DNA of 64,000 bases, taken from IMG/VR virus record IMGVR_UViG_3300037067_021792, one strand, 5' to 3'. The notes under the pieces are model-generated. The model did not search any database and was not told the DNA's origin. It saw nothing but the letters and a program-made list of their open reading frames with translations. Source of the DNA: a virus. Taxonomy: Duplodnaviria > Caudoviricetes. Both the position numbers and the translations under genes were made by a program. Positions 2,957 through 62,892 of this stretch are shown here, one piece after another (position 1 is the stretch's first letter; each line of letters opens with the position of its first letter).

Positions 2957-4750
2957 ATGGAATCACAATTTTCTGTTCAAGAAGAAATGTTCAAAGCTCT
3001 ACTTCGCACTCCGCATAGGCAGGTAGACGAAACCCTGCATTTGCACAAGTCTCAATTTGAGCGAGATCCAAACTTTTATGGTAAACTAGCCGCCTATTGT
3101 GTCATTGGTGAAAATTGTGCGGTTCGAGATATTAATGAGGTGTTCATTGCTACTTTATTGGTGTCTTCATATGAACAGCATCAAGAAGCCGGATATGTTA
3201 TGTTTCAGTCTCTTCCACCATATGAGGCGGACCGGGTGGCCAATTACGTCACTGGTTATGACGAGACCATAGTGCGGCATTCGTATGAGTCTGATATGCC
3301 CAAGCAGAACTCATTCGGCGTGACTTATGAAATTGCCAAATACGGAAGCAATCATCCCGATCCAGAGAAGAGAGGGAAGGATATGCCAGTTCGTGTTATA
3401 AAGCTTGGTAATAAAAGTAAATTGCGAGCTTTGCTTATAAAACAAAATAAAATCGACTACAATACTAAGGAAATCACCGCGACCACATATTTGGTTCACC
3501 ACAAGTGTTATAACCAGCGCAATTTTAAGGGCATATTGAAAAGAGCTGTTAAATCATATCTGAAATATCGAGAAAACAATCCAGCTATGATGGAAGGGGC
3601 TTTGATCCGTTCGGCACAGTCAATTAAGAAGTTTTATGTTCGCACCCATGCTTTACCTCTTGGTAATGCAAATAGTTGGATTAATCGATATTTGTTTGCC
3701 GATGAAACAATTCCTGGCACCAGATTACATGCTCTAAAAACGTTACAAAACGAGAAAGATCCAATTAGGCAGGCAGAAATTGTTACAGAAAATAATCTGC
3801 CGTTTACGGTTGTATCGTCTCTTATGTCTGATATTACTCCATCCGTTACGGCTGCATCGATTATGGTGATGTCTTATCAAGAGATTATGCAATCTATGGA
3901 CCTGTTAAAACGCCGAGGGGCTTTTGACAATCCAGATTTGAAGAAATTAATACATGACAAATTAGAAAAAGCCAAAAAAGCCAAAAAGGGCCGGATGGAT
4001 GCAATGAAGGGCAAAAAAGCCGCTAGCACTAAAGGTCTAGACAAAGACACTCAGTCTTTGTTGAAAGATATAACCGATCAGCAGCTAAAGCATCATAGCA
4101 ATATATCTGTTCCAACTGCTTTATTAATAGATAAATCAGGATCGATGACCGAGTCTATTAATCTGGGGAAGCAACTAAGTGCGGCTATAGCACAGGCATG
4201 TGCTCCTGGCAATGAACCTATCGTTTACCTATTCGATGCAACTCCAGTAGAAATTGAATGGAACAAGAAAGATGGAGATATAACATTACTCTCTAGTTGG
4301 GAGAAAAAGCTGGCAATGTTCCGGGCTAATGGCGGAACTGATCCTGCTGCGGTTCTAATGGCAATGGAACTTAAGAACCAGGTTGCAGACCAAATATTAT
4401 TAGTTACCGATGAGGGAGAAAATAATGAAGGGAAATTTGCCAAACAGCTTAAATCTTATTCAAAGAAAATGGGTGTAACACCTAATATCGTTATAGTACG
4501 AATTGGTAGTTCTGGATATGGAATACACGATATTATAGAAAAATCTCTCAAGAAAGCCGGATTTAATGTTACGGTTTTAGTTGCAACTGGAATTGACAGC
4601 GTTTCTTTACCTAACGTTATTCAGTTGCTTTCTTGTAAAAGTACATTTGAGTTAGTCCAGGAGATTTTGTCGTTGACTTTACCCACTCGCAGTGAGTGGG
4701 ACGCCAATAATCTTCTAAACGTTGTTAGTGAAGGAGTTCAAAGTGTCTAG
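2957..4750 (+). CDS. TROVE-like / VWA domain protein (Ro60/Rsr-related)
   Basis: N-terminal LLRTPHR..DPNFYGKLA helical region; C-terminal VWA MIDAS motifs LIDKSGSM, GGTD, LVTDEGEN. Confidence 0.75.
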   Translation: MESQFSVQEEMFKALLRTPHRQVDETLHLHKSQFERDPNFYGKLAAYCVIGENCAVRDINEVFIATLLVSSYEQHQEAGYVMFQSLPPYEADRVANYVTGYDETIVRHSYESDMPKQNSFGVTYEIAKYGSNHPDPEKRGKDMPVRVIKLGNKSKLRALLIKQNKIDYNTKEITATTYLVHHKCYNQRNFKGILKRAVKSYLKYRENNPAMMEGALIRSAQSIKKFYVRTHALPLGNANSWINRYLFADETIPGTRLHALKTLQNEKDPIRQAEIVTENNLPFTVVSSLMSDITPSVTAASIMVMSYQEIMQSMDLLKRRGAFDNPDLKKLIHDKLEKAKKAKKGRMDAMKGKKAASTKGLDKDTQSLLKDITDQQLKHHSNISVPTALLIDKSGSMTESINLGKQLSAAIAQACAPGNEPIVYLFDATPVEIEWNKKDGDITLLSSWEKKLAMFRANGGTDPAAVLMAMELKNQVADQILLVTDEGENNEGKFAKQLKSYSKKMGVTPNIVIVRIGSSGYGIHDIIEKSLKKAGFNVTVLVATGIDSVSLPNVIQLLSCKSTFELVQEILSLTLPTRSEWDANNLLNVVSEGVQSV

Positions 4751-8659: not shown

Positions 8660-9934
8660 ATGTCCAAAAAAGTAATTATCATTGAAGCACCAAATAAGGT
8701 TAATGGGTATAAGAAATACGCGGGTAAAGAGTATGATGTCCTGGCTTCATATGGGCACTGTGTGGACCTTCCCGAAAAGGGTTTGGGTATAAATATTAAA
8801 AAATCCTTTGAACCCACTTTTGAAGTTAAGGATGATCATCAGGATACAATTAATGCTATTAAATCTAAATGTGCTAAATCTGATTTAGTATTATTAATGA
8901 CAGACCCAGATCGTGAAGGTGAAGCAATATCATTCCACATTTATGAGCAAATTAAAGATATTGCCAAGAAAGTATTACGAGCTTCAACTAGCGAAATTAC
9001 AGCATCGGGTATTAAGAAGGCTATAGAAAATGCCGGAGAACTAGATCAAGGTAAAATTAATGCTTATCTGGCTCGCCGATTACTAGATAGATTAGTGGGT
9101 TATCGAACTAGTTTTTTAACTCAGCAGGCCACGGGCGGTAAATCGGCGGGCAGGGTGCAAAGTGCTGTATTACGGATTTTGGTTGACCGCGAAAATGAAA
9201 TACTTCACTTTATTCCTGAAGAATACTGGATTTTTACGGCTCGGCTCTTGTCGAGTAAAAATGAGCAATATACTGCTTCACTATCAGATAAATTCAAAGT
9301 CCCAAATGAAGCAGAGGCTACAAAAATATACGATGCCGTTATTGGGGGGAATCCAGTTGTTGCCAGTGTTGAATCAAAAGATGTGAAATCTAATCCTTAC
9401 GCTCCGTTCGCCACCATGCCTCTTATTGCTGCTGCGTCCTCGATTTTGGGATGGCAAACTAAAAAGACAATGGATGTGGCTCAGAACCTGTATAGTAACG
9501 GATTAATCAGCTATCATCGTACCGATTCGGTCACAATAGCAGAAGAACCAATGCAGGCAATACGAAATTATATTTCTCACACCTATGGGTCAGATTATAT
9601 TCCGGATAAACCCAACTATTACAGTGCAAAAAAAGGAGCACAGGAAGCCCACGAAGCGTGTAGACCAACGGATATTTCTAACGTTCATCCGTCAGCACCT
9701 GAGGATAACGGGAAACTATACGAAATAATTTGGCGCAGAACAGTAGCTAGCCAAATGACTCCTGGGCTAGATAAAAAATCGAAAGTGATTACTGATATTT
9801 CTGAATATGAATTTGTGTCAAATGGCAATCAAATGTTATTCGACGGGCATCGGCAGGTTTGGCATTATGGGAAATCAGATGATGTTATTTTGCCAAATTT
9901 GTTCGGAGGCGAAAAGTGTAAATTGTTAACCTGA
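8660..9934 (+). CDS. topA: DNA topoisomerase IA, N-terminal part
   Basis: TOPRIM IIEAPNK and DPDREGE, SAGRVQS, catalytic-Tyr motif LISYHRTDS, AQEAHEACRPT; stops at GEKCKLLT. Confidence 0.92.
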   Translation: MSKKVIIIEAPNKVNGYKKYAGKEYDVLASYGHCVDLPEKGLGINIKKSFEPTFEVKDDHQDTINAIKSKCAKSDLVLLMTDPDREGEAISFHIYEQIKDIAKKVLRASTSEITASGIKKAIENAGELDQGKINAYLARRLLDRLVGYRTSFLTQQATGGKSAGRVQSAVLRILVDRENEILHFIPEEYWIFTARLLSSKNEQYTASLSDKFKVPNEAEATKIYDAVIGGNPVVASVESKDVKSNPYAPFATMPLIAAASSILGWQTKKTMDVAQNLYSNGLISYHRTDSVTIAEEPMQAIRNYISHTYGSDYIPDKPNYYSAKKGAQEAHEACRPTDISNVHPSAPEDNGKLYEIIWRRTVASQMTPGLDKKSKVITDISEYEFVSNGNQMLFDGHRQVWHYGKSDDVILPNLFGGEKCKLLT

Positions 9935-9944
9935 AGGAGTTCGA

Positions 9945-11102
9945 ATGATAACCCAATCTGCCACTTATGGCGACGAATATTTAACTACGATAGTAGCCAG
10001 TCAGGCTGCTCATATTTTGGGAACAAATCCCGCAAATTTAATCATGTATTCAGAGGGACAATTTCTTAAAGGTGTTTTTTCTGGCCTATCTTATTGTAAA
10101 ACAACAACCATTGGCACCGATGGATCGATGCCTAATAAACTTCATAACTTTTTGCAATTATGTGAAATGCGTGATAACTCTGACATAAAATTTGTTCGGG
10201 CATGTGTATCATTTGGGCCATATGGGGTTTCGATCTATTATATTTTCATAGAAAAGGGTAAGGCGTTTAAAGCTAAAAGATCTTTAATAAGACTTTCGGC
10301 TCGGCTTAATCCTCCCATTGCGCCTGTATTGAATGACGCACTGTGGGGTGATTTAATCGATAATACTGTTGGATTTTTTAAAAAGGCTCGGGATTATAAG
10401 GCATACGGCGTCAAGACGACTCGGGGAATAATACTTTCTGGTCCACCCGGGAATGGGAAATCAATGTTTTGTGATTATCTTATACGATGCTTTAATAATC
10501 GCGGAATTGATGTTATGGTGTATACATCGAGAGATCTCATTAAAACAATAATAGATAATAGAAATCCGTTCGATTTCAGGGTGATTTTTGTAGATGACGT
10601 TGATATAGACTTCTTTTCTAGGAAATCTAATTCCGAGATGGCATGCAGCCTGCTTTCTTGTCTAGATGGGTGCAAAAAAACATCTTCTGTTGCACTGAGA
10701 ATATTTTCTACTAATGAATCTATCAAAAATATAGATCCGGCTTTTCTCAGACCAGGGCGAGTCGATAAGTGTTTTTCTTTTGACAATCCTAACACTGAAT
10801 TAAGGAAGAAATTTATCAATACTTGGAATCAGAATATTTTGGATGGTATTGATGTGCCCGAATTTATTAATCGTTCTGAGGGATTTAGCTTTGCAGACAT
10901 GGATCTTGTTAAGCAGGTTTTAGTTTCTAACTTTCTTTCATCCGGTAAGTGGGATATGTCAGTAGCAATCGGAGAGTTCGAGAGTAGATGTAGTGTAGAA
11001 AGTCACAGAAAAACTGGTATAGGATTTGATAATCTGAAATCTGCAGAAGAATCAATACCAAAACCGACAGGACCAAAACCAATAAGAGGAATGCATGAGT
11101 GA
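9945..11102 (+). CDS. AAA+ ATPase inserted between the topA halves
   Basis: Walker A GPPGNGKS, Walker B IFVDDVD, SRH STN..IDPAFLRPGRVD; AAGGAG SD. Confidence 0.9.
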   Translation: MITQSATYGDEYLTTIVASQAAHILGTNPANLIMYSEGQFLKGVFSGLSYCKTTTIGTDGSMPNKLHNFLQLCEMRDNSDIKFVRACVSFGPYGVSIYYIFIEKGKAFKAKRSLIRLSARLNPPIAPVLNDALWGDLIDNTVGFFKKARDYKAYGVKTTRGIILSGPPGNGKSMFCDYLIRCFNNRGIDVMVYTSRDLIKTIIDNRNPFDFRVIFVDDVDIDFFSRKSNSEMACSLLSCLDGCKKTSSVALRIFSTNESIKNIDPAFLRPGRVDKCFSFDNPNTELRKKFINTWNQNILDGIDVPEFINRSEGFSFADMDLVKQVLVSNFLSSGKWDMSVAIGEFESRCSVESHRKTGIGFDNLKSAEESIPKPTGPKPIRGMHE

Positions 11103-11883
11103 TATTATAAATAAGCATCCGGGATTAACTGCCGAGCGAAAAGAAACCCAGCCCCCGCCAAGATATTCAGACGCGAGCTTGGCAAAGATTTGCGAGAAAG
11201 AGCAGATAACTCGTCCTGCGACTTTTAAAGGTGTAATTGACACCTTAAAAGCTAGGAAGTATATAACCCAAGAGAAAAAATCTTTCAACCCTACCGAGGT
11301 AGGGATGAAGGTTGTCGAGTTTCTTAGACAAGCAGATATGTGTTTTATTGATATAAAGTTCACGGCTAAAATGGAAGAGCTGCTAGATGATGTACAAAGT
11401 GGTACCAAAGATAAGATAGAAGTCCTCGATAAATTTTGGGAACGGTTGCAGAAAGACATCGCCAATGGTAAGCAAATTAAATCTGCAGGTGAAGTATCTG
11501 AATATAAGTGTCCTAAATGCGGAGGATCATTGCTTAAGAAATTTAGCAAATTCGGTCCATTTTTTGCTTGTCAGAACTCCAAAAAACTGACCCAGAAGCA
11601 GATAGATGCAGGGGAAGAATCTCCGTGTGACTACATTGCTAGTGTCGGGAAAAGTGGAGAACCACTTACTAAACAAAAAGTTGAAAAAGAGTACGCGTCA
11701 TTTCCCTGTAAGAAATGCGGAGAAAAGATGGTTAAAAGACACTCGAAATTTGGGTCGTTTTTCGGATGTGAAAAATTTCCGTCCTGTAAAACTACCGCAG
11801 ATTTAGAGGGTAATTTTAAGGAATCATCTGGTAAGAAATTCAAGAAGTATAAGAAATACAAAAAGAAAGCAGATGACGAGTGA
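11095..11883 (+). CDS. topA: DNA topoisomerase IA, C-terminal part with two Zn ribbons
   Basis: TQPPPRYSDASL..ITRPATF, FTAKMEELLD, two C4 ribbons, Lys-rich tail; own AGAGGA SD and ATG. Confidence 0.9.
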   Translation: MSDIINKHPGLTAERKETQPPPRYSDASLAKICEKEQITRPATFKGVIDTLKARKYITQEKKSFNPTEVGMKVVEFLRQADMCFIDIKFTAKMEELLDDVQSGTKDKIEVLDKFWERLQKDIANGKQIKSAGEVSEYKCPKCGGSLLKKFSKFGPFFACQNSKKLTQKQIDAGEESPCDYIASVGKSGEPLTKQKVEKEYASFPCKKCGEKMVKRHSKFGSFFGCEKFPSCKTTADLEGNFKESSGKKFKKYKKYKKKADDE

Positions 11884-12605: not shown

Positions 12606-13280
12606 ATGTATAAAGACTTATTTGGAAACGGTCCAATACGACATAAGACTATACTTAATGGTCGAGATGCTGAAGCAATAGATATACTAATAAACCTTCA
12701 TTGCCCCACTAGTAATCCTAAAATACTGGATTGCACGTATAATTCCGGGAAAATGTGGAAAAATTCAAGATACCATCCGACTACCCGCATGGATATCGAC
12801 CCGCTTCTTGATGTAGACGTGGTCGGTGATTTCACGAATATGCCATTTGGAGATTCGGAATACGATATTATTGTTTTTGATCCTCCTCATTTACCCGTTG
12901 CCGCAGCCTCGGAAAATAGTTCTAAAATATGGGAGAAATCTTATGGGATTACGGATAATGGCATTGGGAGAGAGGGCGATAACGTATCTAGTATGTTTCT
13001 TCCGTTTCTAAAAGAAGCAGAGCGAGTTTTGAAAAAGAATGGAATTGTATTAGCAAAAATTGCAGATATAATTCACAATCACCGGTATCAATGGCAGCAA
13101 GTTGATTTTGTTAATGCCGTTCGGCAGACAAACATGACTCCATGCGATATGATGATTAAATGCGATCCAAATGCCGGCAACCTAACATCTAGCAAGTGGA
13201 ACAAGATAAAACATTTGAGAAAATCCCACTGTTACTGGATTGTCGTTCGAAATTCTGGACGTTGTGAATGTATAATATAA
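12606..13280 (+). CDS. Amino-type (N6A/N4C) DNA methyltransferase
   Basis: ILDCTYNSG SAM-binding motif; VFDPPH catalytic-like motif. Confidence 0.75.
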   Translation: MYKDLFGNGPIRHKTILNGRDAEAIDILINLHCPTSNPKILDCTYNSGKMWKNSRYHPTTRMDIDPLLDVDVVGDFTNMPFGDSEYDIIVFDPPHLPVAAASENSSKIWEKSYGITDNGIGREGDNVSSMFLPFLKEAERVLKKNGIVLAKIADIIHNHRYQWQQVDFVNAVRQTNMTPCDMMIKCDPNAGNLTSSKWNKIKHLRKSHCYWIVVRNSGRCECII

Positions 13281-15440: not shown

Positions 15441-17306
15441 GTGAGTAAAATTGTTGGCGTGGATCTTGGCACTACTAATTCGGTTGTCGCCATTGTAGAA
15501 AATGGACAGCCAAAAGTATTAATTAATAGCAGCGGTGGCCGCACTACTCCGTCTCTGGTTTCATTTAATAAATCCGAGAGGATTGTTGGTCAACGAGCTA
15601 GGAATCAGCAGGTTTTAAATCCTAAGAATACAATTTATTCTATCAAGCGATTTATGGGAAGGCGACATTCTGAAGTTAGCGCAGAAGAAAAGACTGTTCC
15701 ATATACAATAGTGGGTGGTCCGGAAGAACTGGTTAAGGTCAAAGTTGATGATAGGGACTACGCCCCTCCAGAGATTTCCGCAATGATATTGAAAGATCTC
15801 AAGACGACTGCTGAAACATATTTTGGGCACGAAATAACTGAAGCGGTTATCACTGTCCCCGCATATTTTAATGATGCCCAGCGACAGGCCACAAAAGAAG
15901 CCGGGCAGATTGCTGGGTTTGATGTTAAGAGAATTATCAACGAACCCACTGCTGCTGCTCTATCATATGGTCTGAATAAAAAGAAGCAGCAAAAAATAGC
16001 TGTTTTTGATTTGGGTGGTGGAACCTTTGATATTTCAGTTCTTGATATTGGAGATAATGTTTTTGAGGTTCTTAGCACTAACGGCGACACCCATTTAGGC
16101 GGTGATGATTTTGACGCCGCATTCGTTGACTACATTGCAGAAGAATTCAGAAAGGTGGAAGGTATCGATCTTCGAAAAGATCCGATGGCTCTACAGCGGT
16201 TAAAGGATTCTGCTGAAAAGGCTAAGTGTGATTTATCATCAAGTCTCGAAACTCAAATATCCCTACCTTTCATTACTGCAGATTCCAATGGACCGAAGCA
16301 CCTAAATCAAACTATAACTCGTTCTAAATTTGAGCAAATAATTTCTGGTTTAATTCAGCGTTGTAGAAATCCAGTTATGCAAGCACTTAAAGACGCCAAT
16401 TTAACACCGAAGGATATAGATGAGGTTATACTGGTCGGTGGCTCAACCCGCGTTCCCGCAGTTCGTGCTTTGGTAAAAGAGATGTTCGGCAAAGAGCCAA
16501 ATTCTAGTGTAAATCCCGATGAGTCGGTAGCCATTGGTGCTGCTATACAAGGATCAATATTAAGCGGAGAATCCTCAGATATTGTTTTACTTGATGTCAC
16601 ACCGCTTTCTTTAGGTGTTGAAACCCTTGGTGGCGTTATGACTGTTTTAATTCCAAGAAACACCACTATACCGACCACTAAAAAAGAGACATTCTCAACT
16701 GCCGCAGACAATCAACCTGGAGTAGATATACATATTCTCCAGGGCGAGAGAAAGATGGCAGATTCCAACAGAACTTTAGGCAGATTTCAATTAGCAGATA
16801 TACCATCTGCACCTCGTGGTGTGCCACAAATTGAGGTTAATTTTGATATAGACGCTAATGGCATTTTGCACGTATCTGCTAAGGATCTTGGCACTGGAAA
16901 ACAGCAATCCATAGAGATTAAGTCGTCATCTGGATTAAGCGATGATGAGGTTAAACGAATGGTGGATGATGCGCAGAAATATTCGGAAGAGGATGCTAAT
17001 AAAAAGGAATTGGTAGATGCAAGAAACCAGGCTGATAATCACATCTATCAAGCCGAGAAGATGATGAAAGAGCATGGGGATAAAATACAAAATAAGTCCG
17101 ATGTTGAATCTGCTGTCAGCGCAGTCAAGGACGCCATTAAAACCAATGATAAGGATTCTATTAAAAAATCCTTAGATGTTCTCAATACCGCTTTGCATAA
17201 AGCCAGCGAAGATATCTATAATGCTAATAAAGCAGCGACTCCTGATATACCCGTTGGCGAGACGCCGACAAATGTAGTAGATGCAGAGTATTCAGTAAAG
17301 GATTAA
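15441..17306 (+). CDS. dnaK: Hsp70 chaperone DnaK
   Basis: [33 protein letters not shown]; full length. Confidence 0.98.
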
Positions 17307-20157: not shown

Positions 20158-20904
20158 GTGTGGTCTAAATTTAAGATATGGAATCTAGGTTTACTAGCAC
20201 TAATTATTACTGGTTGCGCAGATCGGTTATTAATGGGTGACACCAATTTGCGCCGCTACCCCACATGTGTTTACTCGGACGTTAAATTAGGACCATATGC
20301 TAAGGCTTGGTTTATAAAACACCCAGAAGCACGAGGCACGGCTATTCTTTTGCCAGGCTATAAAACTAATAAAGGATATCTTCTGGAATTTATTGATTTA
20401 TGGACAAGTAACAAGTTTAATGTACTATTGTTGGATTATCGAGGGTTTGGAGATGCTGCCGGTACTGTGGATTTTAGGGGAATAGTAGAAGACGTTCATC
20501 TTGCGGTTGTTTTTGCTCAGTCTCAGCATCCTCGCGTTATTTTGCACGGATTTTCTTTGGGCACTATGGTAGAAGCTAAAGTGGCATCAGAAGTTGATGT
20601 TTCAGGATGTATTTTTGATGGAGTGGCCTCACCTAACGCATTGGGTTTGACGGGCTTAGTTTTACCTAAAGACATGCGCACACGTCAAACAATTCTTAAA
20701 ATAAAAGAACCGAAACTGTTTATCCATAGTATAGACGACGATGTAACGGTATATTCAGAAGCAGAATATATCTACAACAGAGCGACTGAACCGAAATCGA
20801 TGTGGACCACATCTGGGCCACATATTTTATCATATAAGTATGACCCACAAGGCTACCAGAGAGTAGTTTCTGGTTGGTTGTCTCAAAATTCATTGGAGAA
20901 TTGA
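20158..20904 (+). CDS. Alpha/beta hydrolase lipoprotein
   Basis: Lipobox IITGC, DYRGFG, GFSLG nucleophile elbow, HSIDDD, GPH. Confidence 0.85.
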   Translation: MWSKFKIWNLGLLALIITGCADRLLMGDTNLRRYPTCVYSDVKLGPYAKAWFIKHPEARGTAILLPGYKTNKGYLLEFIDLWTSNKFNVLLLDYRGFGDAAGTVDFRGIVEDVHLAVVFAQSQHPRVILHGFSLGTMVEAKVASEVDVSGCIFDGVASPNALGLTGLVLPKDMRTRQTILKIKEPKLFIHSIDDDVTVYSEAEYIYNRATEPKSMWTTSGPHILSYKYDPQGYQRVVSGWLSQNSLEN

Positions 20905-21254
20905 ATTGAAAACCCATGTCCACAATTGGATTCTTGTTGATCTTTCATATGATAATGAAGATCATGAAACAATTACTTATAGCTGCTCAATTTGCGGTCG
21001 ATGTCGATACGTTAATGCAGGATGACAAACATAGAAGATGAAAGGTGAGGTGAAGCTGATATGAAAAAGTCCTTTTGTGATCATTGTGGTGAAGAATTCT
21101 CAGCAACAGATGAATATGTAAAAGCGAAAATAGAAATATCTTACACCGAGTATTTAGGTGATGATGGTTCGAGTTTTCGCGAAGAGAAAATCGAACTTTG
21201 CCATCAGTGTTTTAGAAAAGTTTACGGAGTTCTGAAACCGAAGGAGAACTCTAG

Positions 21255-21632
21255 ATGAAAATTCGAAACTCTTTTGTAAGTAATAGTTCATCTTGTTCGT
21301 TTATTATTGACAATCGCACGGATCAGATTAAGACCTTAGTAGATTTTATTCAAGATAATCCGAACATTTTCGAGCAGTATCTAAAGGAATACGAGGAAGA
21401 TATTAAAGAAATGGGTTCGGACTGGATGGGCACTCCTGCCTCTCGACTAACTACGAAGAATTTTTTGAAATCTGCGGCAGAATATGATAAAACAATATTG
21501 CCCGGTCGTAATTATTTGACATTCGCCGATGATAGTGGTGATTTTGCGGAATATGTATTACACACCATGCTTTCCGATGTAAAATCAAGCAATAAAAATT
21601 GGCACTGGGAATTTTATGAATCCTACCACTGA
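21255..21632 (+). CDS. MKIRxxFVSNSSS-family phage protein
   Basis: N-terminus MKIRNSFVSNSSSCSF. Confidence 0.7.
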   Translation: MKIRNSFVSNSSSCSFIIDNRTDQIKTLVDFIQDNPNIFEQYLKEYEEDIKEMGSDWMGTPASRLTTKNFLKSAAEYDKTILPGRNYLTFADDSGDFAEYVLHTMLSDVKSSNKNWHWEFYESYH

Positions 21633-34755: not shown

Positions 34756-35529
34756 ATGCACGGGATGCCGTCGAAAATTAGGTCATTAACCAAAGAATCA
34801 ATTGCGGTATATAACCCCTCGGACCCATTTGAACAAATGGTGCAGAGTGCATCCAAAAAGTATACAGGCGATTGGCTTTCAATGTATCAATGCAAATTAG
34901 TAGCAAAAGCTATACTAAGTCTCAAATCCTTTGAAGAAACATGGAGTGATAGCACCGAATTGCTGCAACAGAGAGTGTCTTACTTCTTCAGTGATGCTTT
35001 TACTAAAAACAAGAATTATGTTGTTTTTCTCACCTTCCCTCTGTTCGTGAGAGATATACTTGAGAACCGAGAAATTAATTCTTATATTCATGATCCGGTA
35101 GTGTTCATGACTATTTCTTTGTCTCATTTTTTGTTCAAGGAATATCCAGTGCATATGTATATTGATGCCAACGCTCTTCGGGCAGAAAATGGCGGCATTA
35201 AACTCATGGAGATCGGCGGTTTATTTATATCCGACGGTGAAAATGTAAGTGTTAATTCGTGTATATCAAAAATAATTTCAACTGATGCAGAAAGTGCTCC
35301 ACAACTCAAGGCGGCGGCTACAAATTTAGGAGAAGGCATATTCAAAATAGACGAACACGAAAGAAAGATAATGCCAGATACAGAAGTGTGGGACAAATAC
35401 AAGAGGGTTGTAGCTCGCATTTTTACCGTAGAGCCCGGAGAGACAGGCGAAGTCGGTATTCGGTATGATGACGGCAATGAGACAATGATATCAAAACTTT
35501 ATTTTGACAATCATTTTGTCTGCATTTAG
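34756..35529 (+). CDS. Hypothetical protein
   Basis: 257-aa ORF. Confidence 0.65.
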   Translation: MHGMPSKIRSLTKESIAVYNPSDPFEQMVQSASKKYTGDWLSMYQCKLVAKAILSLKSFEETWSDSTELLQQRVSYFFSDAFTKNKNYVVFLTFPLFVRDILENREINSYIHDPVVFMTISLSHFLFKEYPVHMYIDANALRAENGGIKLMEIGGLFISDGENVSVNSCISKIISTDAESAPQLKAAATNLGEGIFKIDEHERKIMPDTEVWDKYKRVVARIFTVEPGETGEVGIRYDDGNETMISKLYFDNHFVCI

Positions 35530-35532
35530 GCG

Positions 35533-36048
35533 ATGAAGTTCATGAGATACCCTATTATATCAAATAATAAAAAGATAATGATAGATGAGAGTAGAATCAT
35601 ATCAAAAATTAAAGATATGATCAAGAATTCTCGTGTAATGAGAAAATTATTTGAAGAATTTGAAGTTAGTCCAGAGAAAATTGATGACCTACGAATACGA
35701 ATAGTAGAGATAGATGACAAGTATGCCGAGACAGATGCAGACCAGATGCTTTTAAATAAATTTATGTTCGAAAAGGGAACATTCTTTGACGATTACTTCT
35801 TCGTGGTAATGCATGAGATTGTGCATTATCTATCTAGAACAAAAGAACAAAACTCATATTTTGCGGATCCAGAAGAACAATTAGGATTTGTTAATTCTAT
35901 AGCGTTTGAAATAGAGCGTGGCACTGATTTGGATATAATTTGGAATCGTATATATCCTAAAGTCGAATTCCATTTTCATAACCCAAGAGACGCAAAACAG
36001 TTCTTTAAAAATATGGTAGAAAAAGCCTATAAGTTGTTGGAGTCGTAA
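35533..36048 (+). CDS. HExxH metallopeptidase-like protein
   Basis: MHEIVH plus downstream DPEE. Confidence 0.6.
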   Translation: MKFMRYPIISNNKKIMIDESRIISKIKDMIKNSRVMRKLFEEFEVSPEKIDDLRIRIVEIDDKYAETDADQMLLNKFMFEKGTFFDDYFFVVMHEIVHYLSRTKEQNSYFADPEEQLGFVNSIAFEIERGTDLDIIWNRIYPKVEFHFHNPRDAKQFFKNMVEKAYKLLES

Positions 36049-45303: not shown

Positions 45304-46683
45304 ATGTCTGAACGAGCTTTGCTTGGAACACCGCCCGTTTCGTTTAACGAAGTAATTAAAGAAGACACGACTATAGAATATGCAATGGTTGTCAAGGCCA
45401 TTTGTGAACAATATGGGATTAAACCGCAGGATTTGAGACAAATTACCTACACGTATACTACATGGGATGTCAAGAGCGAGAGCAAGATAAGACATATTCG
45501 TCAGGTTCCTCACAAAATTTATATCCCAGAATCCCTAGCACCTAATACCAGGGATGAAAATGAGACTCCGGTTCTAAACTTAACCATGTCTCCAAATCCG
45601 ACATTAGATGACCCATATGATGCCGGAATACACGAATATGAAATTAATGCCAACAGGGGCAAAATTCGAATGTGGAGATGGAGAGGATTCCGTAATTATG
45701 CGCCTCTGGGAAGCTACGTGGAATTTGTTGAGCATTGCAATTTGAAGAAGTTTTATCGATTTATTTTAGAGAGCCAAAATGATATTCCAGATGCCCTTCA
45801 ACCTGTTCTAGAGCCTGAAAAATTACGAGATATTTATGCGAATAGTATCGGGTTTCTTGAACGAGGCCAGTCGATGCTTAAGACATATAAAGAGCACAAT
45901 ATACCCTGCAAGAGAGGATTGCTATTAGCCGGATGTCCCGGCGGGGGAAAAACGTATACTTGCAAGTGGCTGCGACAATTATGTGTTAGGAAAGGATTTG
46001 ATTATAAAGTTGTTACTTTCGAGGATTACCGTAATGCTTTGTCTCGTGGCACTGTTAGTAGCTTATTTAGGTTAGCTCCAGGAGAATGGGGTATTATCTT
46101 TTTTGATGACATGGAAATGGCCTTACAGCCTAAAAGCTCGGGAAATACTCATGTTAACACATTCTTAACTGAACTAGATGGAATCGAGCCCACAGAGGGT
46201 ATAGTATATATATTTACATCTAACCAAATAGAAGATCTCGATACAGCTTTTGTTCGTCCTGGTCGTATTGACGTATTTATGATTTTTCAAGCACCAAATA
46301 AAAAATTAAGAAGAGTATATATTGAGAATCGTTTTCACGCCGATTTGCTAAAAACATTAGGTGCTAACATTGCGAACAAAGACGATGAAATTATTAAAGA
46401 TATTATAAATAGGACCGAAAGCTATACATTTGCCGAAATCGAGGAAGTGCGTAAATTGATGACTATTGATTTTTTGGATGGAAAAGAAGTTAGTGTAGAA
46501 AAAACCTTTAAATTATTTGAAAAACATCGGCAGGAATTTGCAGATCGGCTTAAATTCGGGTTTGGAAAAATGGGCGAAAGCGCAGATGATTATGACGGAG
46601 ACTGCGGAGAAGATTGGGCGTCCGAATTTGTTCTTCCGCCGCCATATAGTCCTGTTGACCTTCTTCGCCGGAGGATGACGTGA
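45304..46683 (+). CDS. AAA+ ATPase related to 9945..11102
   Basis: GCPGGGKT, IFFDDME, TSN..LDTAFVRPGRID. Confidence 0.9.
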   Translation: MSERALLGTPPVSFNEVIKEDTTIEYAMVVKAICEQYGIKPQDLRQITYTYTTWDVKSESKIRHIRQVPHKIYIPESLAPNTRDENETPVLNLTMSPNPTLDDPYDAGIHEYEINANRGKIRMWRWRGFRNYAPLGSYVEFVEHCNLKKFYRFILESQNDIPDALQPVLEPEKLRDIYANSIGFLERGQSMLKTYKEHNIPCKRGLLLAGCPGGGKTYTCKWLRQLCVRKGFDYKVVTFEDYRNALSRGTVSSLFRLAPGEWGIIFFDDMEMALQPKSSGNTHVNTFLTELDGIEPTEGIVYIFTSNQIEDLDTAFVRPGRIDVFMIFQAPNKKLRRVYIENRFHADLLKTLGANIANKDDEIIKDIINRTESYTFAEIEEVRKLMTIDFLDGKEVSVEKTFKLFEKHRQEFADRLKFGFGKMGESADDYDGDCGEDWASEFVLPPPYSPVDLLRRRMT

Positions 46684-47041
46684 ACAGAGAAATTTTTGAA
46701 GTCGGAAAGCAACCATGTGACAATTTCAATCCCAGCGACTCGTGCTATCCGGGTGGTGGGAATCTACATGAGTGTCCAGGCTGTTGTGGTTGTAGATCGT
46801 GGTGCCAGAATTGCAATAAAGATCATCATTCTGAAGGATGGGATTTGTGCGGAAGCAACACGAAGCATGCACTGCGGGCAATTGTGGCACGTATTAAAGG
46901 CGAATTCGACAATCCCGAGTTAATGTTGTTTGGCCCACTGAGCACAGATACCGTAAAAGACATTCTGAACATTGCCCTTAGCGCAGAATGACCATCTTTG
47001 GTTCCCAAGTCTGTGATGGGGATTCCTAGCACCTAATATAA

Positions 47042-47109
47042 CGCACCCAGTAGGAGTCGAACCTACTTTGACAGAGTTAGAATCTGCTAGCTCCCACGAG
47101 CATAGGTGC
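47042..47109 (-). tRNA. tRNA with CUA anticodon (amber suppressor), tRNA-Pyl-like fold
   Basis: GCACCTA-T-GCTC-GTGG-GAGC-T-AGCAGA-TT-CTA-AC-TCTGTC-AAA-GTAGG-TTCGACT-CCTAC-TGGGTGC-G; no encoded CCA. Confidence 0.85.
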
Positions 47110-47143
47110 AAAAATGGCCGTGAATTTTAATTTCGCGGCCATT
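47110..47143 (-). terminator. Intrinsic terminator after hsp20
   Basis: ATGGCCGCGAA..TTCACGGCCAT hairpin with T-run, ending exactly at the tRNA 5' end. Confidence 0.75.
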
Positions 47144-47150
47144 AACTTAA

Positions 47151-47594
47151 TCAGTCTGTCTTGACCGGAATTTGTTTCCGGTCAGAACCATTTGCAATCT
47201 TAGGGCAAGTTACCGATAGGACTCCATCTCGGAGCGATGCAGATATCTGGTCTTTGTCTACATTAGGCATGTAGTAAGACCTTGTGCTCTTGCCATAATA
47301 TCGCTCTTTGTGTCGAGATTGTCCTTCCTCGTTATCCTTTCTGGTTTCAGATGTAATAGTTAAAGTATTATCGCCATATTCGACTTTTATGTCTGTTTCC
47401 TTTGTGCCTGGTACTTCGGCTTTGACTGTGAACGAACGGTCACTTTCACTAAAGTCTGAAACAATACTAGTAGTTGGCCAATTCCAGTCCGGCCATCCCA
47501 GCATTATATCAGCAAGACCCCGCTCAAAAACAAATCCGAACGGGTCATACGAACTAAAGATACCAAGCCTTTGCTTTTTGGATAACTCATTCAT
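47151..47594 (-). CDS. Hsp20 small heat-shock protein
   Basis: AEVPG..DIKVE..LTI..ERYYG..ASLRDGVLSVTCPK..IPV. Confidence 0.92.
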   Translation of the reverse strand: MNELSKKQRLGIFSSYDPFGFVFERGLADIMLGWPDWNWPTTSIVSDFSESDRSFTVKAEVPGTKETDIKVEYGDNTLTITSETRKDNEEGQSRHKERYYGKSTRSYYMPNVDKDQISASLRDGVLSVTCPKIANGSDRKQIPVKTD

Positions 47595-47621
47595 TTGTTT
47601 TCTCCTTTCTTTGTGTGAATT

Positions 47622-49250
47622 TTACATGCCGTCCATTTGTGGATGTTTGTCATTCTCTTCTTTGGGCACATCGGCGACTACAACGTTTGTAGTCAAAAGC
47701 AAGCCACCGATACTCGCTGCATTTTGTAGGGCACATCGTTCTACTTTAACTGGCACCAATACACCCATCGAAACAAGATTTCCATATTGCCCGGTTAGGG
47801 CATTATACCCGAAATTAGGGTCAGTAGAATTTTGTACTTTCTCCAACACAATTGCGCCTTCAACGCCAGCATTAAGGGTTATCTGGCGTATTGGAGCACA
47901 TAGGGCTCGCTTAACAATGTCCACGCCTGTTTTCTCGTCTAGCGTGAGAGAATTATCATTAAGTAAATCATTCAGCGCCCTTGTTGCCCTTACTGGTGCA
48001 ACTCCACCACCAGGCAAAACACCTTCCTGCACGGCCGCTCGGCACGCGTGAAGGGCATCATCAATGCGGGCTTTCTTTTCCTTCATTTCTGTTTCAGTCG
48101 CAGCACCAACATTGATCTGGGCAACACCACCTGAAAGCTTTGCTAGCCGTTCTTCTAACTTCTCTTTGTCGTAATCGCTATTACTTGATTCGATAGCAGA
48201 TTTAATCTGATTAATGCGCCCCTTAATTGCTTCAGGGTTACCTGCTCCATCGACAATAGTAGTATCATCCTTGGTGATTTTGACTTTCTTGGCTGCTCCA
48301 AGAATTTCAAGTCCTAGATTTTCGAGCTTTTCACCAAGTTCTCCAGTGATGGCTCTGGCACCAGTTAGAATGGCAATATCTTCGAGCATTGCCTTTCTAC
48401 GATCGCCAAAACTAGGTGCTTTTGTGGCACAGCATTTAAGAGTTCCACGAAGTTTATTGACAACTAGAGTTGCCAACGCTTCACCTTCGATATCCTCGGC
48501 GACAATCAGTATTGACTTATTTGCTTGTGATACTTGTTCGAGTATTTTTACGATATCTTTGACGGTTGTTAGCTTTTTGTCATACAGAAAAATGTATGGT
48601 TCTTCGAGTTCGCACTCCATTGTTTCAAGGTCAGTAGCAAAATGCGGAGATTTATATCCTTTATCAAATTGCATTCCTTCAACTAGCTCTACATATGTAT
48701 CAACTGTTGTGCCTTCTTCGATAGTAATAACACCGTCTTTCCCGACTTTATCCATAGCTTCTGCAATTTGCTCACCAATGGCTGCATCCTGGTTGGCTGC
48801 ACTGGTTCCAACCTGCGCTATTTGTTTTGTGTCGGTTACGTCAATTTTCATTTTCTTAAATTCTTCGACAACAACTTCGACTGCCTTGTCGATACCTCGT
48901 TTAAGGCTCATTGAATCAGCGCCAGCTACAACGTTCTTGAGCCCTTCCTCAAATATCGCTTCTGCATAAATCGTAGCAGTTGTTGTTCCGTCGCCCGCAG
49001 TATTGGAAGTTTTATTGGCAACCTCTTTGACCATTTGGGCACCAACATCCTCGTAAGGATCTTTTAGATCAATTTCGTTAGCTACGGTTACACCATCTTT
49101 GGTGATAACAGGTGTGCCGAAGTCTTTCTTGATGATTACATTGCGGCCACGAGGCCCTAGAGTTTCTTTGACTGCCCGAGCAAGTTTCTTTACACCATTA
49201 CGAATGGACTCTCTGGCTTGTTGATCATAAAGCATTTCTTTTGCGCTCAT
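47622..49250 (-). CDS. groL: Chaperonin GroEL
   Basis: [45 protein letters not shown]. Confidence 0.98.
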
Positions 49251-49263
49251 TCATTTTCTCCTT

Positions 49264-49578
49264 TTACTCTTTGACTACACAGAAAATTTCGTTTTCGCTT
49301 AGTAGTAGATATTTTTCACCGCAACATTCGAATTCATTTCCGGAGTATTTGGCAAAAACAACCTTATCGCCGGGTTGTAGCACTAATTTTGTTATCGTGC
49401 CATCAGAATTTAGAATCCCTTCGCCAACTGCCAACACAGTTCCAACAACTGGCCTCTCTTTGGCATCATCTGGTAGATATAGCCCACCTTCTGTTTTTTG
49501 AGGCTCCTCGTCTCGCTTGACTACAATTTTGTCTCGAATTGGTTGCAACTTGCAATTACATTTACACTGATTTTCCAT
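49264..49578 (-). CDS. groS: Co-chaperonin GroES
   Basis: LQPIRDKIVV, TEGGLYLPD, GDKVVFAKYSG. Confidence 0.96.
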   Translation of the reverse strand: MENQCKCNCKLQPIRDKIVVKRDEEPQKTEGGLYLPDDAKERPVVGTVLAVGEGILNSDGTITKLVLQPGDKVVFAKYSGNEFECCGEKYLLLSENEIFCVVKE

Positions 49579-49593
49579 CTTGCTTTTCTCCTT

Positions 49594-50106
49594 TTATCTG
49601 AACATGATGAATTTGTGTGTTGATTTAAAATCGTTCCAAAGTTTTTTGACTCCACTATTATCGGAATATGCCCGAAACACATCCATAATAATAGCGTGAG
49701 TTCGTTCTGCTGCTTGTGACAATTCCATTAATAATTGTATATCACTTAACCTGATATGTTTAATAGAGTTACAACTTAAAATAAGTAGATGATCACCGGG
49801 AAAAAATTCGTTGTGCTGATGTTTGAAATTTTCTTTTTGATGTCCGGGGGTGATAACGATAGCACTTCTTTCGTGGGCAATTAAATGTGTTAATAAAGTT
49901 GAACCAGTTCCCCTTGGAATTTGGAATTGCAAAGTTTGTTCATCTTCTACTATATATTCTGAAAGTGGCTTATAATCATCCAGGAAGCTGTCAATAACAT
50001 TTTTAATATGCACGAGAAACGGGGATACTTCTGATAGGTTGGGGAAATTCTGATATGAGTTTTCTTTATCTGTCATTTGGGACATCTCCCACAAATCTGC
50101 GGACAT
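49594..50106 (-). CDS. Hypothetical protein with degenerate P-loop-like motif
   Basis: IPRGTGST and IIMD. Confidence 0.45.
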   Translation of the reverse strand: MSADLWEMSQMTDKENSYQNFPNLSEVSPFLVHIKNVIDSFLDDYKPLSEYIVEDEQTLQFQIPRGTGSTLLTHLIAHERSAIVITPGHQKENFKHQHNEFFPGDHLLILSCNSIKHIRLSDIQLLMELSQAAERTHAIIMDVFRAYSDNSGVKKLWNDFKSTHKFIMFR

Positions 50107-50158
50107 CTCCGCTTCTGCAATATTATACAGCGTATTTTTGATTTTTCAAGAAAATTTC

Positions 50159-50218: not shown

Positions 50219-50761
50219 GTGTCGATATCAGTTCAAAAACCAAAGAAGTGTGCTTGCCCAGAAATTGGTGAAATTCTTTATGGGCAGGAGTATATCAGTC
50301 GAATTGAATTTCCGACTAAGTTGTTAGATGGAAAGAGATTAGTAATACCGGAGTATGGTTACGGATGGGACGGGATTAAACATCTCAACATCGATGCCTG
50401 TAATCTACCTTCCGAAGTAAAATATGAGTGTCCGTGGACTCATAATAAATTTAATTGGATATATCCCATTGGGATTATTACAAGCGATGAGACTCGTTAC
50501 GGGTATGATCATGATGCAGAGAATATATGGGAAGGAAAACCCTGGCAGTGTCCTGAAATCTGTGAAGATAAAGAATGTGAAGTTGGATATACTGGCATAT
50601 CGGGATTTTTAACGAGTTCATTATATCTCTCATTTGTGGGACATGGATATACGGAATTTACTTTGCCGCATGATGGAAGTAGAGATTTGGTACTAGCTAC
50701 CGTGCCATTAGATAATGGCGATGAGCTGCTATGCTTGTGCTGGATTTGGTACAACAAATAG
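50219..50761 (+). CDS. Hypothetical protein
   Basis: GGAG SD before GTG; ends in TAG. Confidence 0.55.
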   Translation: MSISVQKPKKCACPEIGEILYGQEYISRIEFPTKLLDGKRLVIPEYGYGWDGIKHLNIDACNLPSEVKYECPWTHNKFNWIYPIGIITSDETRYGYDHDAENIWEGKPWQCPEICEDKECEVGYTGISGFLTSSLYLSFVGHGYTEFTLPHDGSRDLVLATVPLDNGDELLCLCWIWYNK

Positions 50762-51584
50762 ATGATGAAGAAAAACAAAAAGAATTTTAATGCTGATGAA
50801 GTTCTTAAAAGAACAGACGAAGAAACTCAGCTAGAGCTGCTTGATATGCTAATGGTGATGTATCCAGATGAATTAGAAGCAGCATTAGATGTTTATAATG
50901 GTGATGATCCTTTTCTCAGACGATTAGCGAGGTCAGTGGAATGAGCCTAAAAGACGAATTGCAATCTCAAATTTATAATGCGCAGCGGAAGCTGGCACTA
51001 TTAGAGCAATTTCCTGATTTGCATAAATATTCCGGAAGATGGGATAAATATTTGTGTAGTGAATTGGTCAATCCAATTGCTACTGGCGTTGACTTCGTTC
51101 ATAGTTGCGGATGTTGCTCTGATGCTGTTTTATATGCAATGCCCTATGTTGAAGTTGCTAAAGAACGGATTTATTCTGATCCCGCTCAAATTGCGATAGG
51201 TGAAAAATCTCCCAATGGGGGTGAAAGGTCCTGGCACAATTGGGCGGAAAAAATTAAGGATCATGGCTTACCCGGTGCGATTATTGAACAAATCAAGAAA
51301 ATGTTCGAAGAAAATCAAGAAAGAGATGAAGAAGATGACTTGTGATGAGCAACTTAATAAATGGCTTGCAGGAAATTCGGTTCACAATAACGATGGGTGT
51401 GACGAATGTTGTCCGGATTTTTCTTGTTGTCGGCCCGAGCTTTTAGCACCACTAGAAGAAAGGGAACATTTTGTGGTATCCAATGACTTAGAACGACAGC
51501 GTATGTTAATGATGTTTTTGGGTCGATTAATCTCAACTTCACCTAATAAAGTACATATCACTGGACCAGACAGAGAAGCGGAAG

Positions 51585-62539: not shown

Positions 62540-62596
62540 GTCGTAGTTTATAGAACGTCTCAGATTCTTCCAACTCATTTGATGGAGTTCTCATGA
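62540..62596 (+). repeat. Second, diverged copy of the PARP 3' end
   Basis: VVVYRTSQILPTHLMEFS* versus MVVFRTSQILPLNLLEFE* at 60956-61012. Confidence 0.9.
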
Positions 62597-62892
62597 TGGA
62601 TTTTTCTGCTGCCTTAATTTTGTTAAAACAAGGTTGTCACATTCGACGCACCGAATGGACAGCGGGAGCGTATTGGTCTTTGGGTAAAAAATGGATCGAA
62701 CAAATATCTTTTTACGCTGGTCAAAAAATAACTGAGCAACGTGGGGCTTTTGAGATAGAGGAAATGTTAGCAACCGATTGGGAGAAAGTAGGTCCTGATT
62801 GGTCCGAAGAATATTTCAAACAAGTATCTTGGGAGAAACATAAGAAAAGTTGTGAAAAATACGCCAAAGAACAGTCGGAGAAAACCGCATGA
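62593..62892 (+). CDS. DUF2829-like protein
   Basis: MDFSAAL..LKQG..RRTEW..MLATDW. Confidence 0.7.
   Translation: MMDFSAALILLKQGCHIRRTEWTAGAYWSLGKKWIEQISFYAGQKITEQRGAFEIEEMLATDWEKVGPDWSEEYFKQVSWEKHKKSCEKYAKEQSEKTA

What the first reader, a model, noticed from the sequence alone, without database searches (positions are those of the whole stretch)
47042..47109. Amber-reading tRNA with pyrrolysine-tRNA architecture in a standard-code phage
Seen: 68 nt, CUA anticodon, a single nucleotide between acceptor and D stems, 4-nt D loop, anticodon stem of 5 bp plus a top A-C in the sixth position, 3-nt variable loop and G discriminator, but a canonical TTCGA T loop and a TT-CTA-AC loop. Established: those geometric traits define tRNA-Pyl, which normally lacks the canonical T-loop sequence. 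At least a dozen genes here end in TAG and conserved genes have no internal TAG, so the code is not globally reassigned. No pylS or pylBCD lies in the window. Inference: a phage conditional amber-recoding system, using a host PylRS, an unrecognised phage synthetase or a new orthogonal pair.
Basis: partly seen in the sequence, partly recalled or inferred. Interest (0 to 1): 0.85.

Follow-up and report, generated by a model that had tools for sequence, protein, structure and literature searches.

The report
Compact amber-suppressor tRNA in a jumbo phage
A huge uncultivated phage that otherwise uses the normal genetic code carries a real but unusually small tRNA that reads the UAG stop codon; its shape resembles pyrrolysine tRNA, but the evidence says it is a slimmed-down ordinary phage suppressor tRNA whose target is still unknown.

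Summary
Window 47042-47109, minus strand, is a genuine 68-nt tRNA gene with anticodon CUA and the compact geometry described.

Related jumbo-phage contigs carry tRNA(CUA) genes too:
- Two sit at the same place, directly after hsp20 and a hairpin with a U-tract.
- One lies elsewhere and has a normal 72-nt cloverleaf.
- Stems show compensatory changes and the anticodon never varies, so the gene is under selection as an amber decoder.

The pyrrolysine reading is not supported:
- The sixth anticodon-stem pair is canonical in 1 of 4 members.
- A covariance model of real tRNA-Pyl aligns the window tRNA end to end, but gives it only 25.8 bits. True tRNA-Pyl score 55-101 bits under the seed model, and ordinary phage tRNAs reach 46.
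- No PylS, other synthetase, release factor or PTH2 gene was found among the window ORFs scanned.
- PylS was absent from 401 sampled Planctomycetota genomes, the phylum whose GroEL and AAA genes are closest.
- No conserved gene in the window is interrupted by TAG.

Most likely this is a reduced ordinary suppressor made by read-through of the chaperone-operon terminator and charged by a host synthetase. The amino acid and the target UAG are unknown.

This scan has found amber suppressors in standard-code phages before, usually beside a UAG-gated PTH2-like gene. No such partner lies in this window.

The parts
47042..47109 (-). 68-nt tRNA gene, anticodon CUA, compact D arm, no encoded CCA
   Evidence: ARAGORN; Rfam RF00005 36.9 bits; cloverleaf fold z -3.35; orthologue in L043 at 73.5% identity with compensatory stem changes
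47110..47143 (-). Hairpin (47113-47143) followed by a U-tract (47110-47114) that ends one base before tRNA position 1. It is terminator-like and also forms the 5' leader of the tRNA.
   Evidence: Fold -14.5 kcal/mol, z -4.15. The same hairpin plus U-run lies directly 5' of the tRNA in L002 and L043.
47151..47594 (-). hsp20 (147 aa), last protein gene of the operon
   Evidence: Pfam HSP20 6e-21; PHROG 432
47622..49250 (-). groEL (542 aa)
   Evidence: Pfam Cpn60_TCP1 4e-71; PHROG 5725 5e-166
49264..49578 (-). groES (104 aa)
   Evidence: Pfam Cpn10 1e-28
49594..50106 (-). First ORF of the operon (170 aa), no family match
   Evidence: ORF list; no Pfam or PHROG hit
50122..50149 (-). Sigma-70-like promoter TTGAAA-16-TATAAT (11 of 12), the only strong promoter-like site upstream of the operon and tRNA
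   Evidence: Consensus scan. This is a consensus match only, not shown to function.

Best explanation
This is a functional phage-encoded amber-suppressor tRNA of the ordinary, non-pyrrolysine kind. In this lineage it has lost one of the two nucleotides at positions 8-9 and about three D-loop nucleotides, which gives a 68-nt molecule.

Shown:
- It is a tRNA with anticodon CUA in a canonical 7-nt loop with U33 and A37.
- The anticodon and cloverleaf are conserved, with compensatory changes, in related jumbo phages.
- It lies at the 3' end of the phage's orf170-groES-groEL-hsp20 operon, immediately after a hairpin and U-tract.

Inferred:
- It is transcribed only on transcripts that read through that hairpin, released by RNase P and 3' trimming, and given CCA by the host enzyme.
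- It is charged by a host synthetase that relies on U35. Lys or Gln are the best guesses.
- It then competes with RF1 at UAG.

TAG is an ordinary stop in this window and no conserved gene here is interrupted by it. The tRNA therefore most likely serves low-level or gene-specific read-through of one or a few UAGs elsewhere in the 268-kb genome, not a change of code.
For: Real tRNA.

Conservation:
- L043 carries a 68-nt tRNA(CUA) at 73.5% identity, in the same hsp20-hairpin-tRNA position.
- L002 carries a 69-nt tRNA(CUA) at the same position in a 327-kb contig.
- L046 carries a canonical 72-nt tRNA(CUA), 56 bits.
- Across the four genes, compensatory or wobble changes occur at acceptor pairs 3-7, anticodon-stem pairs 1-3 and 5, and T-stem pairs 1-3. 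The anticodon loop keeps U33-C-U-A-A37.

Reduction from a canonical form: window, L043 and L046 share the D stem GCUC/GAGC and the loop UUCUAA. L046 has two linker nucleotides and a 7-nt D loop.

Operon context.

Standard code.

Body resembles ordinary elongator tRNAs. A model of the four genes, run on 151 Planctomycetota genomes, gave as its 30 best hits Lys(CUU) 13, Trp 7, Arg(UCU) 6, Gly 2, Lys(UUU) 1 and Arg(CCU) 1. CUU to CUA is one substitution.

Literature: phage suppressor tRNAs, including one in a standard-code phage, and the expectation of non-canonical shapes, are described in bioRxiv 10.1101/2021.08.26.457843.
Against: - No target UAG was found in the window or in about 150 kb of related loci: no conserved in-frame TAG and no early-UAG gene.
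- About 204 kb of the genome could not be read.
- The L043 anticodon stem has two A.C mismatches.
- The amino acid cannot be assigned. Discriminators differ (G in window and L002, A in L043 and L046), and identity to Lys, Arg and Trp tRNAs is similar.
- The four tRNA(CUA) genes are only 44-56% identical outside the window-L043 pair, so common descent of all four is not proven.
Confidence: 0.68

Rival explanations
1. It is a true tRNA-Pyl, or the tRNA half of a new orthogonal pair. Its compact core excludes standard synthetases, and it is charged by a host PylRS or an unrecognised phage enzyme.
For: - The geometry equals that of PylS-adjacent tRNA-Pyl of the class lacking the N-terminal domain: 68 nt, 4-bp D stem, 4-nt D loop, 3-nt variable loop and a UUCGAC T loop. 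The tRNA-Pyl model aligns positions 1-68 with one insertion and one deletion.
- G1-C72 and G73 are present.
- Several window ORFs have no family match.
- Relatives come partly from marine sediment.
Against: - It scores 25.8 bits, against 55-101 for true tRNA-Pyl under the seed model, while ordinary phage tRNAs score up to 46.
- The sixth anticodon-stem pair is A.C, A-U, A.A and U.U in the four genes.
- The GG of the D loop is retained.
- A canonical 72-nt relative exists.
- No PylS, PylBCD or any aaRS family was found in the window ORFs scanned.
- PylS was found in 0 of 401 sampled Planctomycetota genomes, against 27 of 251 in the Thermoplasmata sample used as a positive control.
Confidence: 0.07
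2. It does not decode. It is a tRNA-shaped RNA kept as a processing or stability signal, where RNase P cleavage would leave the chaperone mRNA ending in a hairpin. Alternatively it is a decoy or substrate for tRNA-targeting defence or repair enzymes.
For: - The hairpin and U-tract abut tRNA position 1 in three phages.
- In L046 the tRNA directly follows an RNA ligase gene, with a PNK-like gene nearby.
- No UAG target was found.
- The D arm is reduced, and L043 has a weak anticodon stem.
Against: - The anticodon loop U33-CUA-A37 is invariant, while the flanking stems change by compensatory substitutions. This is expected for a decoder, not for a mere cleavage signal.
- The acceptor stem and the T loop with GG partners are intact.
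- L046 lacks the hairpin arrangement but keeps the CUA tRNA.
Confidence: 0.12
3. It is the suppressor of a code-15-type phage. Late or lysis genes outside this window carry in-frame TAG and are translated only after the tRNA accumulates.
For: - This is the known pattern in TAG-recoded phages, where replication genes stay in the standard code.
- The window holds only replication, chaperone and NAD genes and no structural genes.
- About 204 kb of the genome is unseen.
Against: - TAG makes up about 18% of stops here, so it is not depleted.
- First-stage notes on the other windows describe a 59-kb structural block of uninterrupted 2.2-3.2 kaa proteins and mention no TAG interruptions. These notes are unchecked.
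- Related loci are densely coded in the standard code.
Confidence: 0.08

Closest known systems
Phage-encoded suppressor tRNA(CUA) of TAG-recoded ('code 15') phages such as crAss-like and Lak, and suppressor tRNAs acquired by standard-code relatives (bioRxiv 10.1101/2021.08.26.457843; PMC9523058)
   Same: Phage-borne tRNA with a CUA anticodon. The host is presumably standard-code. No dedicated synthetase is in view. Encoded among early or standard-code genes.
   Different: No in-frame TAG genes are visible. TAG is a common stop. The tRNA is reduced to 68 nt. It is the only tRNA in the window and is placed behind an operon terminator.
tRNA-Pyl of the class lacking PylSn (Methanomassiliicoccales type), retrieved here next to PylS
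   Same: CUA anticodon. 68 nt without CCA. 4-bp D stem, 4-nt D loop, short variable loop, UUCGAC T loop, G1-C72 and G73.
   Different: Weak sequence match (25.8 bits against 55 or more). One linker nucleotide instead of none. No bulged base. The sixth anticodon pair is not conserved. No PylS or PylBCD in the window or the sampled candidate host phylum. A canonical cloverleaf relative exists.
Amber suppressor tRNA plus UAG-gated PTH2-like gene modules in standard-code phages, reported earlier in this scan (e1-5344395, e1-5351193, e1-5390906; unchecked AI notes)
   Same: A conserved tRNA(CUA) in large standard-code phages. One of those cases is also an oddly shaped tRNA in a jumbo phage.
   Different: No PTH2 family hit and no gene with an early UAG was found in this window or in the related loci held.
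Laboratory amber suppressors derived from elongator tRNAs, such as tRNA-Lys(CUA) and supE/supF types (my own knowledge of Normanly, Kleina, Abelson and Miller, 1990)
   Same: One anticodon substitution away from Lys(CUU), Trp(CCA) or Gln(CUG). U35-dependent synthetases (LysRS, GlnRS) commonly charge CUA tRNAs.
   Different: A natural phage gene with a shortened D arm. The inserted residue has not been determined.

Membership tests
tRNA (Rfam RF00005) | Cloverleaf scoring above the curated threshold | tested here: met
   36.9 bits against a gathering score of 29; relatives score 30.1, 33.7 and 56.1 bits
Phage amber-suppressor tRNA | Anticodon CUA centred in a 7-nt loop with U33 and purine 37, conserved in relatives | tested here: met
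   Loops are UUCUAAC, UUCUAAA, UUCUAAA and CUCUAAA in window, L043, L046 and L002. The alternative UCU register would put C at position 33 in L002.
Phage amber-suppressor tRNA | Genes with in-frame TAG that need it | tested here: not met
   None in the window or in related loci. The one in-frame TAG-separated pair (34756-35529 and 35533-36048) is out of frame in the closest relative L047. The rest of the genome was not readable.
Phage amber-suppressor tRNA | Is aminoacylated and suppresses UAG | not testable with these tools
tRNA-Pyl | Anticodon CUA | tested here: met
tRNA-Pyl | Elongated (6-bp) anticodon stem with a 3-nt variable loop | tested here: not met
   The sixth position is A.C in the window, A-U in L043, A.A in L046 and U.U in L002
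tRNA-Pyl | [quoted passage not shown] | tested here: inconclusive
   Met in window and L043 (one U; 4-nt loop). Not met in L046 (two nucleotides; 7-nt loop). Ambiguous in L002.
tRNA-Pyl | Sequence and structure similarity to genuine tRNA-Pyl | tested here: not met
   Under model R2, built from 24 PylS-adjacent tRNA-Pyl, the window scores 25.8 bits and relatives 20.2-33.7. True members score 55-101 under seed model R1. Ordinary phage tRNAs reach 46.1. Only one tRNA-Pyl class was modelled.
tRNA-Pyl | A cognate PylRS (and pylBCD) in the same genome or host | tested here: not met
   No PylS or aaRS family in the window ORFs scanned. PylS was found in 0 of 401 sampled Planctomycetota genomes. The host assignment is itself an inference, and the rest of the phage genome is unseen.

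The most novel reading that the evidence does not exclude
A clade of standard-code jumbo phages, possibly infecting Planctomycetota, keeps a dedicated amber decoder. In one lineage it has converged on the minimal tRNA-Pyl-like core. It is produced only when transcription reads through the terminator of the phage chaperone operon. This would make it a dosage-limited, stress- or stage-linked switch for one or a few UAG-gated genes, possibly with unusual, near-orthogonal charging.
Probability: 0.2. Interest if true: 0.75.

Novelty: new variant of a known kind. Interest (0 to 1): 0.45.

Why it matters
Why standard-code phages keep suppressor tRNAs is an open question. This case adds three things:
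- a conserved example in huge phages with no visible recoding
- a natural tRNA that reached the compact tRNA-Pyl-like geometry from an ordinary cloverleaf
- an expression arrangement (terminator, then tRNA) that would keep suppression low

A small, naturally evolved amber decoder of this shape could also interest people who build orthogonal translation systems. The finding also shows that ARAGORN's 'tRNA-Pyl' label and a Pyl-like outline are not evidence of pyrrolysine use.

Tried and rejected
- **Whole genome.** None is held for the window, and the ENA and Logan contigs are not searchable. About 204 kb of the 268-kb contig stayed unread.
- **Pattern scans for more family members.** Five of seven scans returned nothing. 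Scans of viral contigs and genome contigs found none. A loose acceptor and T-arm pattern in viral contigs returned ordinary Arg, Asn and Asp tRNAs plus two canonical suppressors. The metagenome scan returned one unrelated tRNA.
- **IMG/VR and INPHARED.** Neither holds a close relative of this phage.
- **TAG read-through candidates.**
  - ThyX and the next ORF: the ThyX domain is complete before the TAG.
  - 50219-50761 and 50762-50944: no evidence of a fusion.
  - 34756-35529 and 35533-36048: fused in L048, but out of frame with a good SD in L047, and separated by another gene in L050.
- **Early-UAG genes.** All candidates have a proper SD and ATG downstream, or lie antisense to real genes.
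- **Back-up stops after TAG.** There is no excess compared with TAA and TGA.
- **Reading the anticodon as UCU (Arg) in a shifted register.** Rejected, because it puts C at position 33 in L002.
- **Isotype of origin by pairwise identity.** Inconclusive; Lys, Arg and Trp are all similar.

Full report
**1. The observation.**
ARAGORN finds one tRNA in the 64-kb window, at 47041-47110 on the minus strand, with anticodon cta. The program prints 'Pyl' for any CTA anticodon, so the label carries no information. Rfam's general tRNA model matches 47042-47109 (-) at 36.9 bits, above the gathering score of 29, and it is the only Rfam hit in the window. The strand folds into a cloverleaf at -26.1 kcal/mol, z -3.35.

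Read on the minus strand, the gene has these features:
- a 7-bp acceptor stem
- a single U before a 4-bp D stem (GCUC/GAGC)
- a 4-nt D loop (GUGG)
- two nucleotides (U, A) before a 5-bp anticodon stem
- the loop UUCUAAC
- four nucleotides (CAAA) before a 5-bp T stem
- the T loop UUCGACU
- discriminator G, with no encoded CCA

The description is therefore accurate.

**2. The genome and the code.**
The window lies in a 268,137-bp metagenomic contig, ENA ERZ27247358 k141_1154289. No whole genome is held for it.

The window encodes the following:
- ThyX, dCMP deaminase and a split topoisomerase
- DnaK, clamp loader, sliding clamp and RuvC
- a sigma-like factor and a Ro60-like protein
- GroES, GroEL, Hsp20 and AAA ATPases
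- NAD-salvage genes and PARP

It holds no structural genes. Of about 107 ORFs, 18-19 end in TAG. Several have complete domains before the TAG, and the long conserved genes have no internal TAG. The standard code applies here.

None of the ORFs scanned matches PylS, any aminoacyl-tRNA synthetase, a release factor or PTH2. This covers all ORFs of at least 240 aa, 54 smaller ones, and the precomputed table for 37-57 kb.

**3. Context.**
The tRNA is the last element of a minus-strand unit:
- a promoter-like site TTGAAA-16-TATAAT at 50149-50122
- a 170-aa ORF, groES, groEL and hsp20
- a hairpin with a U-tract at 47143-47110 (-14.5 kcal/mol, z -4.15)
- tRNA position 1 at 47109

There is no room for a separate promoter between hsp20 and the tRNA.

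**4. Relatives.**
Homologues of the neighbouring AAA protein led to related contigs of 195-327 kb.

| Locus | tRNA(CUA) position | Length | Notes |
|---|---|---|---|
| L043 | 2234-2301 (-) | 68 nt | AAA 69% identical; tRNA 73.5% identical to the window's; follows the putative hsp20 (148 aa, cut by the contig end), a hairpin and a U-tract |
| L002 | 11782-11850 (-) | 69 nt | 327-kb contig; same position after groEL-hsp20-hairpin-U5; missed by ARAGORN, found by Rfam at 33.7 bits |
| L046 | 12729-12800 (-) | 72 nt | Follows an RNA ligase gene; canonical cloverleaf, 56 bits |

L003, L004, L005 and L044 have no tRNA at this locus.

In a hand-made structural alignment of the four genes:
- The loop keeps U33-C-U-A-A37.
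- Across the four genes, acceptor pairs 3-7, anticodon-stem pairs 1-3 and 5, and T-stem pairs 1-3 change by compensatory or wobble substitutions.
- The sixth anticodon-stem position is A.C, A-U, A.A and U.U.
- Window, L043 and L046 share the D stem GCUC/GAGC. L046 has two linker nucleotides and a 7-nt D loop containing GG.

The compact form is best read as a reduction of a canonical suppressor within this lineage.

**5. Test against real tRNA-Pyl.**
PylS (TIGR02367) was found in 27 of 251 sampled genomes of one archaeal class. In 24 of the 25 loci fetched, a 68-nt tRNA(CUA) lies beside it. These have no linker nucleotide, a 4-bp D stem, a 4-nt D loop, a 6-bp anticodon stem with a bulge, a 3-nt variable loop and a UUCGAC T loop. 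A canonical-looking T loop is therefore no argument against tRNA-Pyl, and the window tRNA's outline really is the same. Model R2, built from these 24, aligns it over 1-68 with one insertion and one deletion.

The scores tell a different story:

| Sequence set | Bits |
|---|---|
| Window tRNA (under R2) | 25.8 |
| L043, L046, L002 (under R2) | 33.7, 30.2, 20.2 |
| True tRNA-Pyl (under seed model R1) | 55-101 |
| Best ordinary tRNAs in six tRNA-rich phage loci (under R2) | 46.1, 37.5, 30.7 |

There is no similarity beyond what any compact tRNA carrying UCUAA would give. Only this class of tRNA-Pyl was modelled.

**6. Host hint.**
All named best hits of the phage GroEL are Phycisphaerae or other Planctomycetota, at 65-69% identity. 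The closest cellular homologues of the AAA protein are Gemmataceae. This is a weak inference about the host. PylS was found in none of 401 sampled genomes of that phylum.

**7. Search for a target.**
- TAG-terminated genes do not have more back-up stops than others.
- Three TAG-terminated genes are in frame with the next ORF.
  - ThyX is complete before its stop.
  - The pair 34756-35529 and 35533-36048 has one fused homologue (L048). In the closest relative (L047) the second ORF is in another frame behind a good SD. In L050 another gene separates the two.
- A scan for start codons followed within a few codons by TAG and a long open frame gave only artefacts, in the window and in relatives.
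- A tblastn of all TAG-containing read-through frames against the related loci gave no conserved gene crossing a TAG.

Earlier reports of this scan describe suppressor tRNAs in standard-code phages beside a PTH2-like gene with UAG at codon 3. No PTH2 hit or such gene is present here. First-stage notes on the other windows of this genome describe long uninterrupted structural genes and mention no TAG interruptions. These notes are unchecked.

**8. Which amino acid.**
A model of the four phage tRNAs (R3) was run on 151 Planctomycetota genomes. Its 30 best hits were Lys(CUU) 13, Trp(CCA) 7, Arg(UCU) 6, Gly(CCC) 2, Lys(UUU) 1 and Arg(CCU) 1. The acceptor stems GCACC.../GCAUC... occur there in Lys and Arg tRNAs.

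Pairwise identities do not separate these isotypes, and the discriminator is G in two members and A in two. From my own knowledge, LysRS and GlnRS rely heavily on U35 and commonly charge CUA suppressors, whereas ArgRS needs C35 and A20, both absent here. Lys or Gln is therefore my guess, not a result.

**9. Verdict.**
- The feature is real and conserved.
- It is an amber suppressor by every structural criterion.
- Its tRNA-Pyl-like outline is genuine but convergent.
- There is no support for pyrrolysine or PylRS.
- How it is used is not shown. The best-supported picture is a low-abundance suppressor made by terminator read-through of the chaperone operon, acting on targets outside this window.

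Phage suppressor tRNAs, including in standard-code phages, are already described. What is new here is the reduced architecture, its conservation in standard-code jumbo phages, and the terminator-coupled placement.

Noticed in passing
window 8660-11883: The topoisomerase is in two pieces. 8660-9934 carries Toprim plus Topoisom_bac positions 2-307. 11095-11883 carries Topoisom_bac 311-410 plus zinc ribbons. An AAA/nSTAND3 ATPase gene (9945-11102) separates them. This is a split or invaded gene.
   Followed up: no
window 2957-4750 and 1-144: A Ro60-like protein (weak vWA_Ro60 hit; PHROG RNA-binding protein) lies near the tRNA-like elements that first-stage notes place at the window start. This is a possible phage Ro60/Y-RNA system. 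Rfam gave no hit there at gathering threshold.
   Followed up: partly
window 15441-17306 and 47151-50106: The phage encodes a full chaperone set: DnaK (Hsp70, 1e-250), GroES, GroEL and Hsp20, plus several AAA ATPases.
   Followed up: partly
window 47622-49250 and 45304-46683: All named best hits of the phage GroEL are Phycisphaerae or Planctomycetota (65-69% identity). The AAA protein's closest cellular homologues are Gemmataceae. The host may be a planctomycete, although the phage is only 39% G+C.
   Followed up: partly
window 34756-36048; L048:10001-11344: A 257-aa protein and a 171-aa HExxH (PhageMetallopep-like) protein are separate genes here and in most relatives. They form one 447-aa protein in a 195-kb relative.
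   Followed up: yes
L008:2641-2796; L019:8240-8314: IMG/VR phage contigs carry canonical suppressor tRNAs whose acceptor-stem 5' strand (GCACCUA) and discriminator G are identical to the window tRNA's; the pairing strand differs at one base (U.G here, U-A there). L008 has two adjacent tRNA(CUA) genes in a 176-kb contig. L019 has a tRNA(UCA). They may be canonical cousins of this tRNA.
   Followed up: no
L002:1698-2909 and 20321-21350: The 327-kb relative carries two TnpB/Cas12f-like (OrfB_IS605) genes near the chaperone locus.
   Followed up: no
window 62593-62892 region: One small ORF matches the Tad2-like (Thoeris anti-defence 2) domain at 1e-6, and another matches DUF5662 at 1e-34.
   Followed up: no
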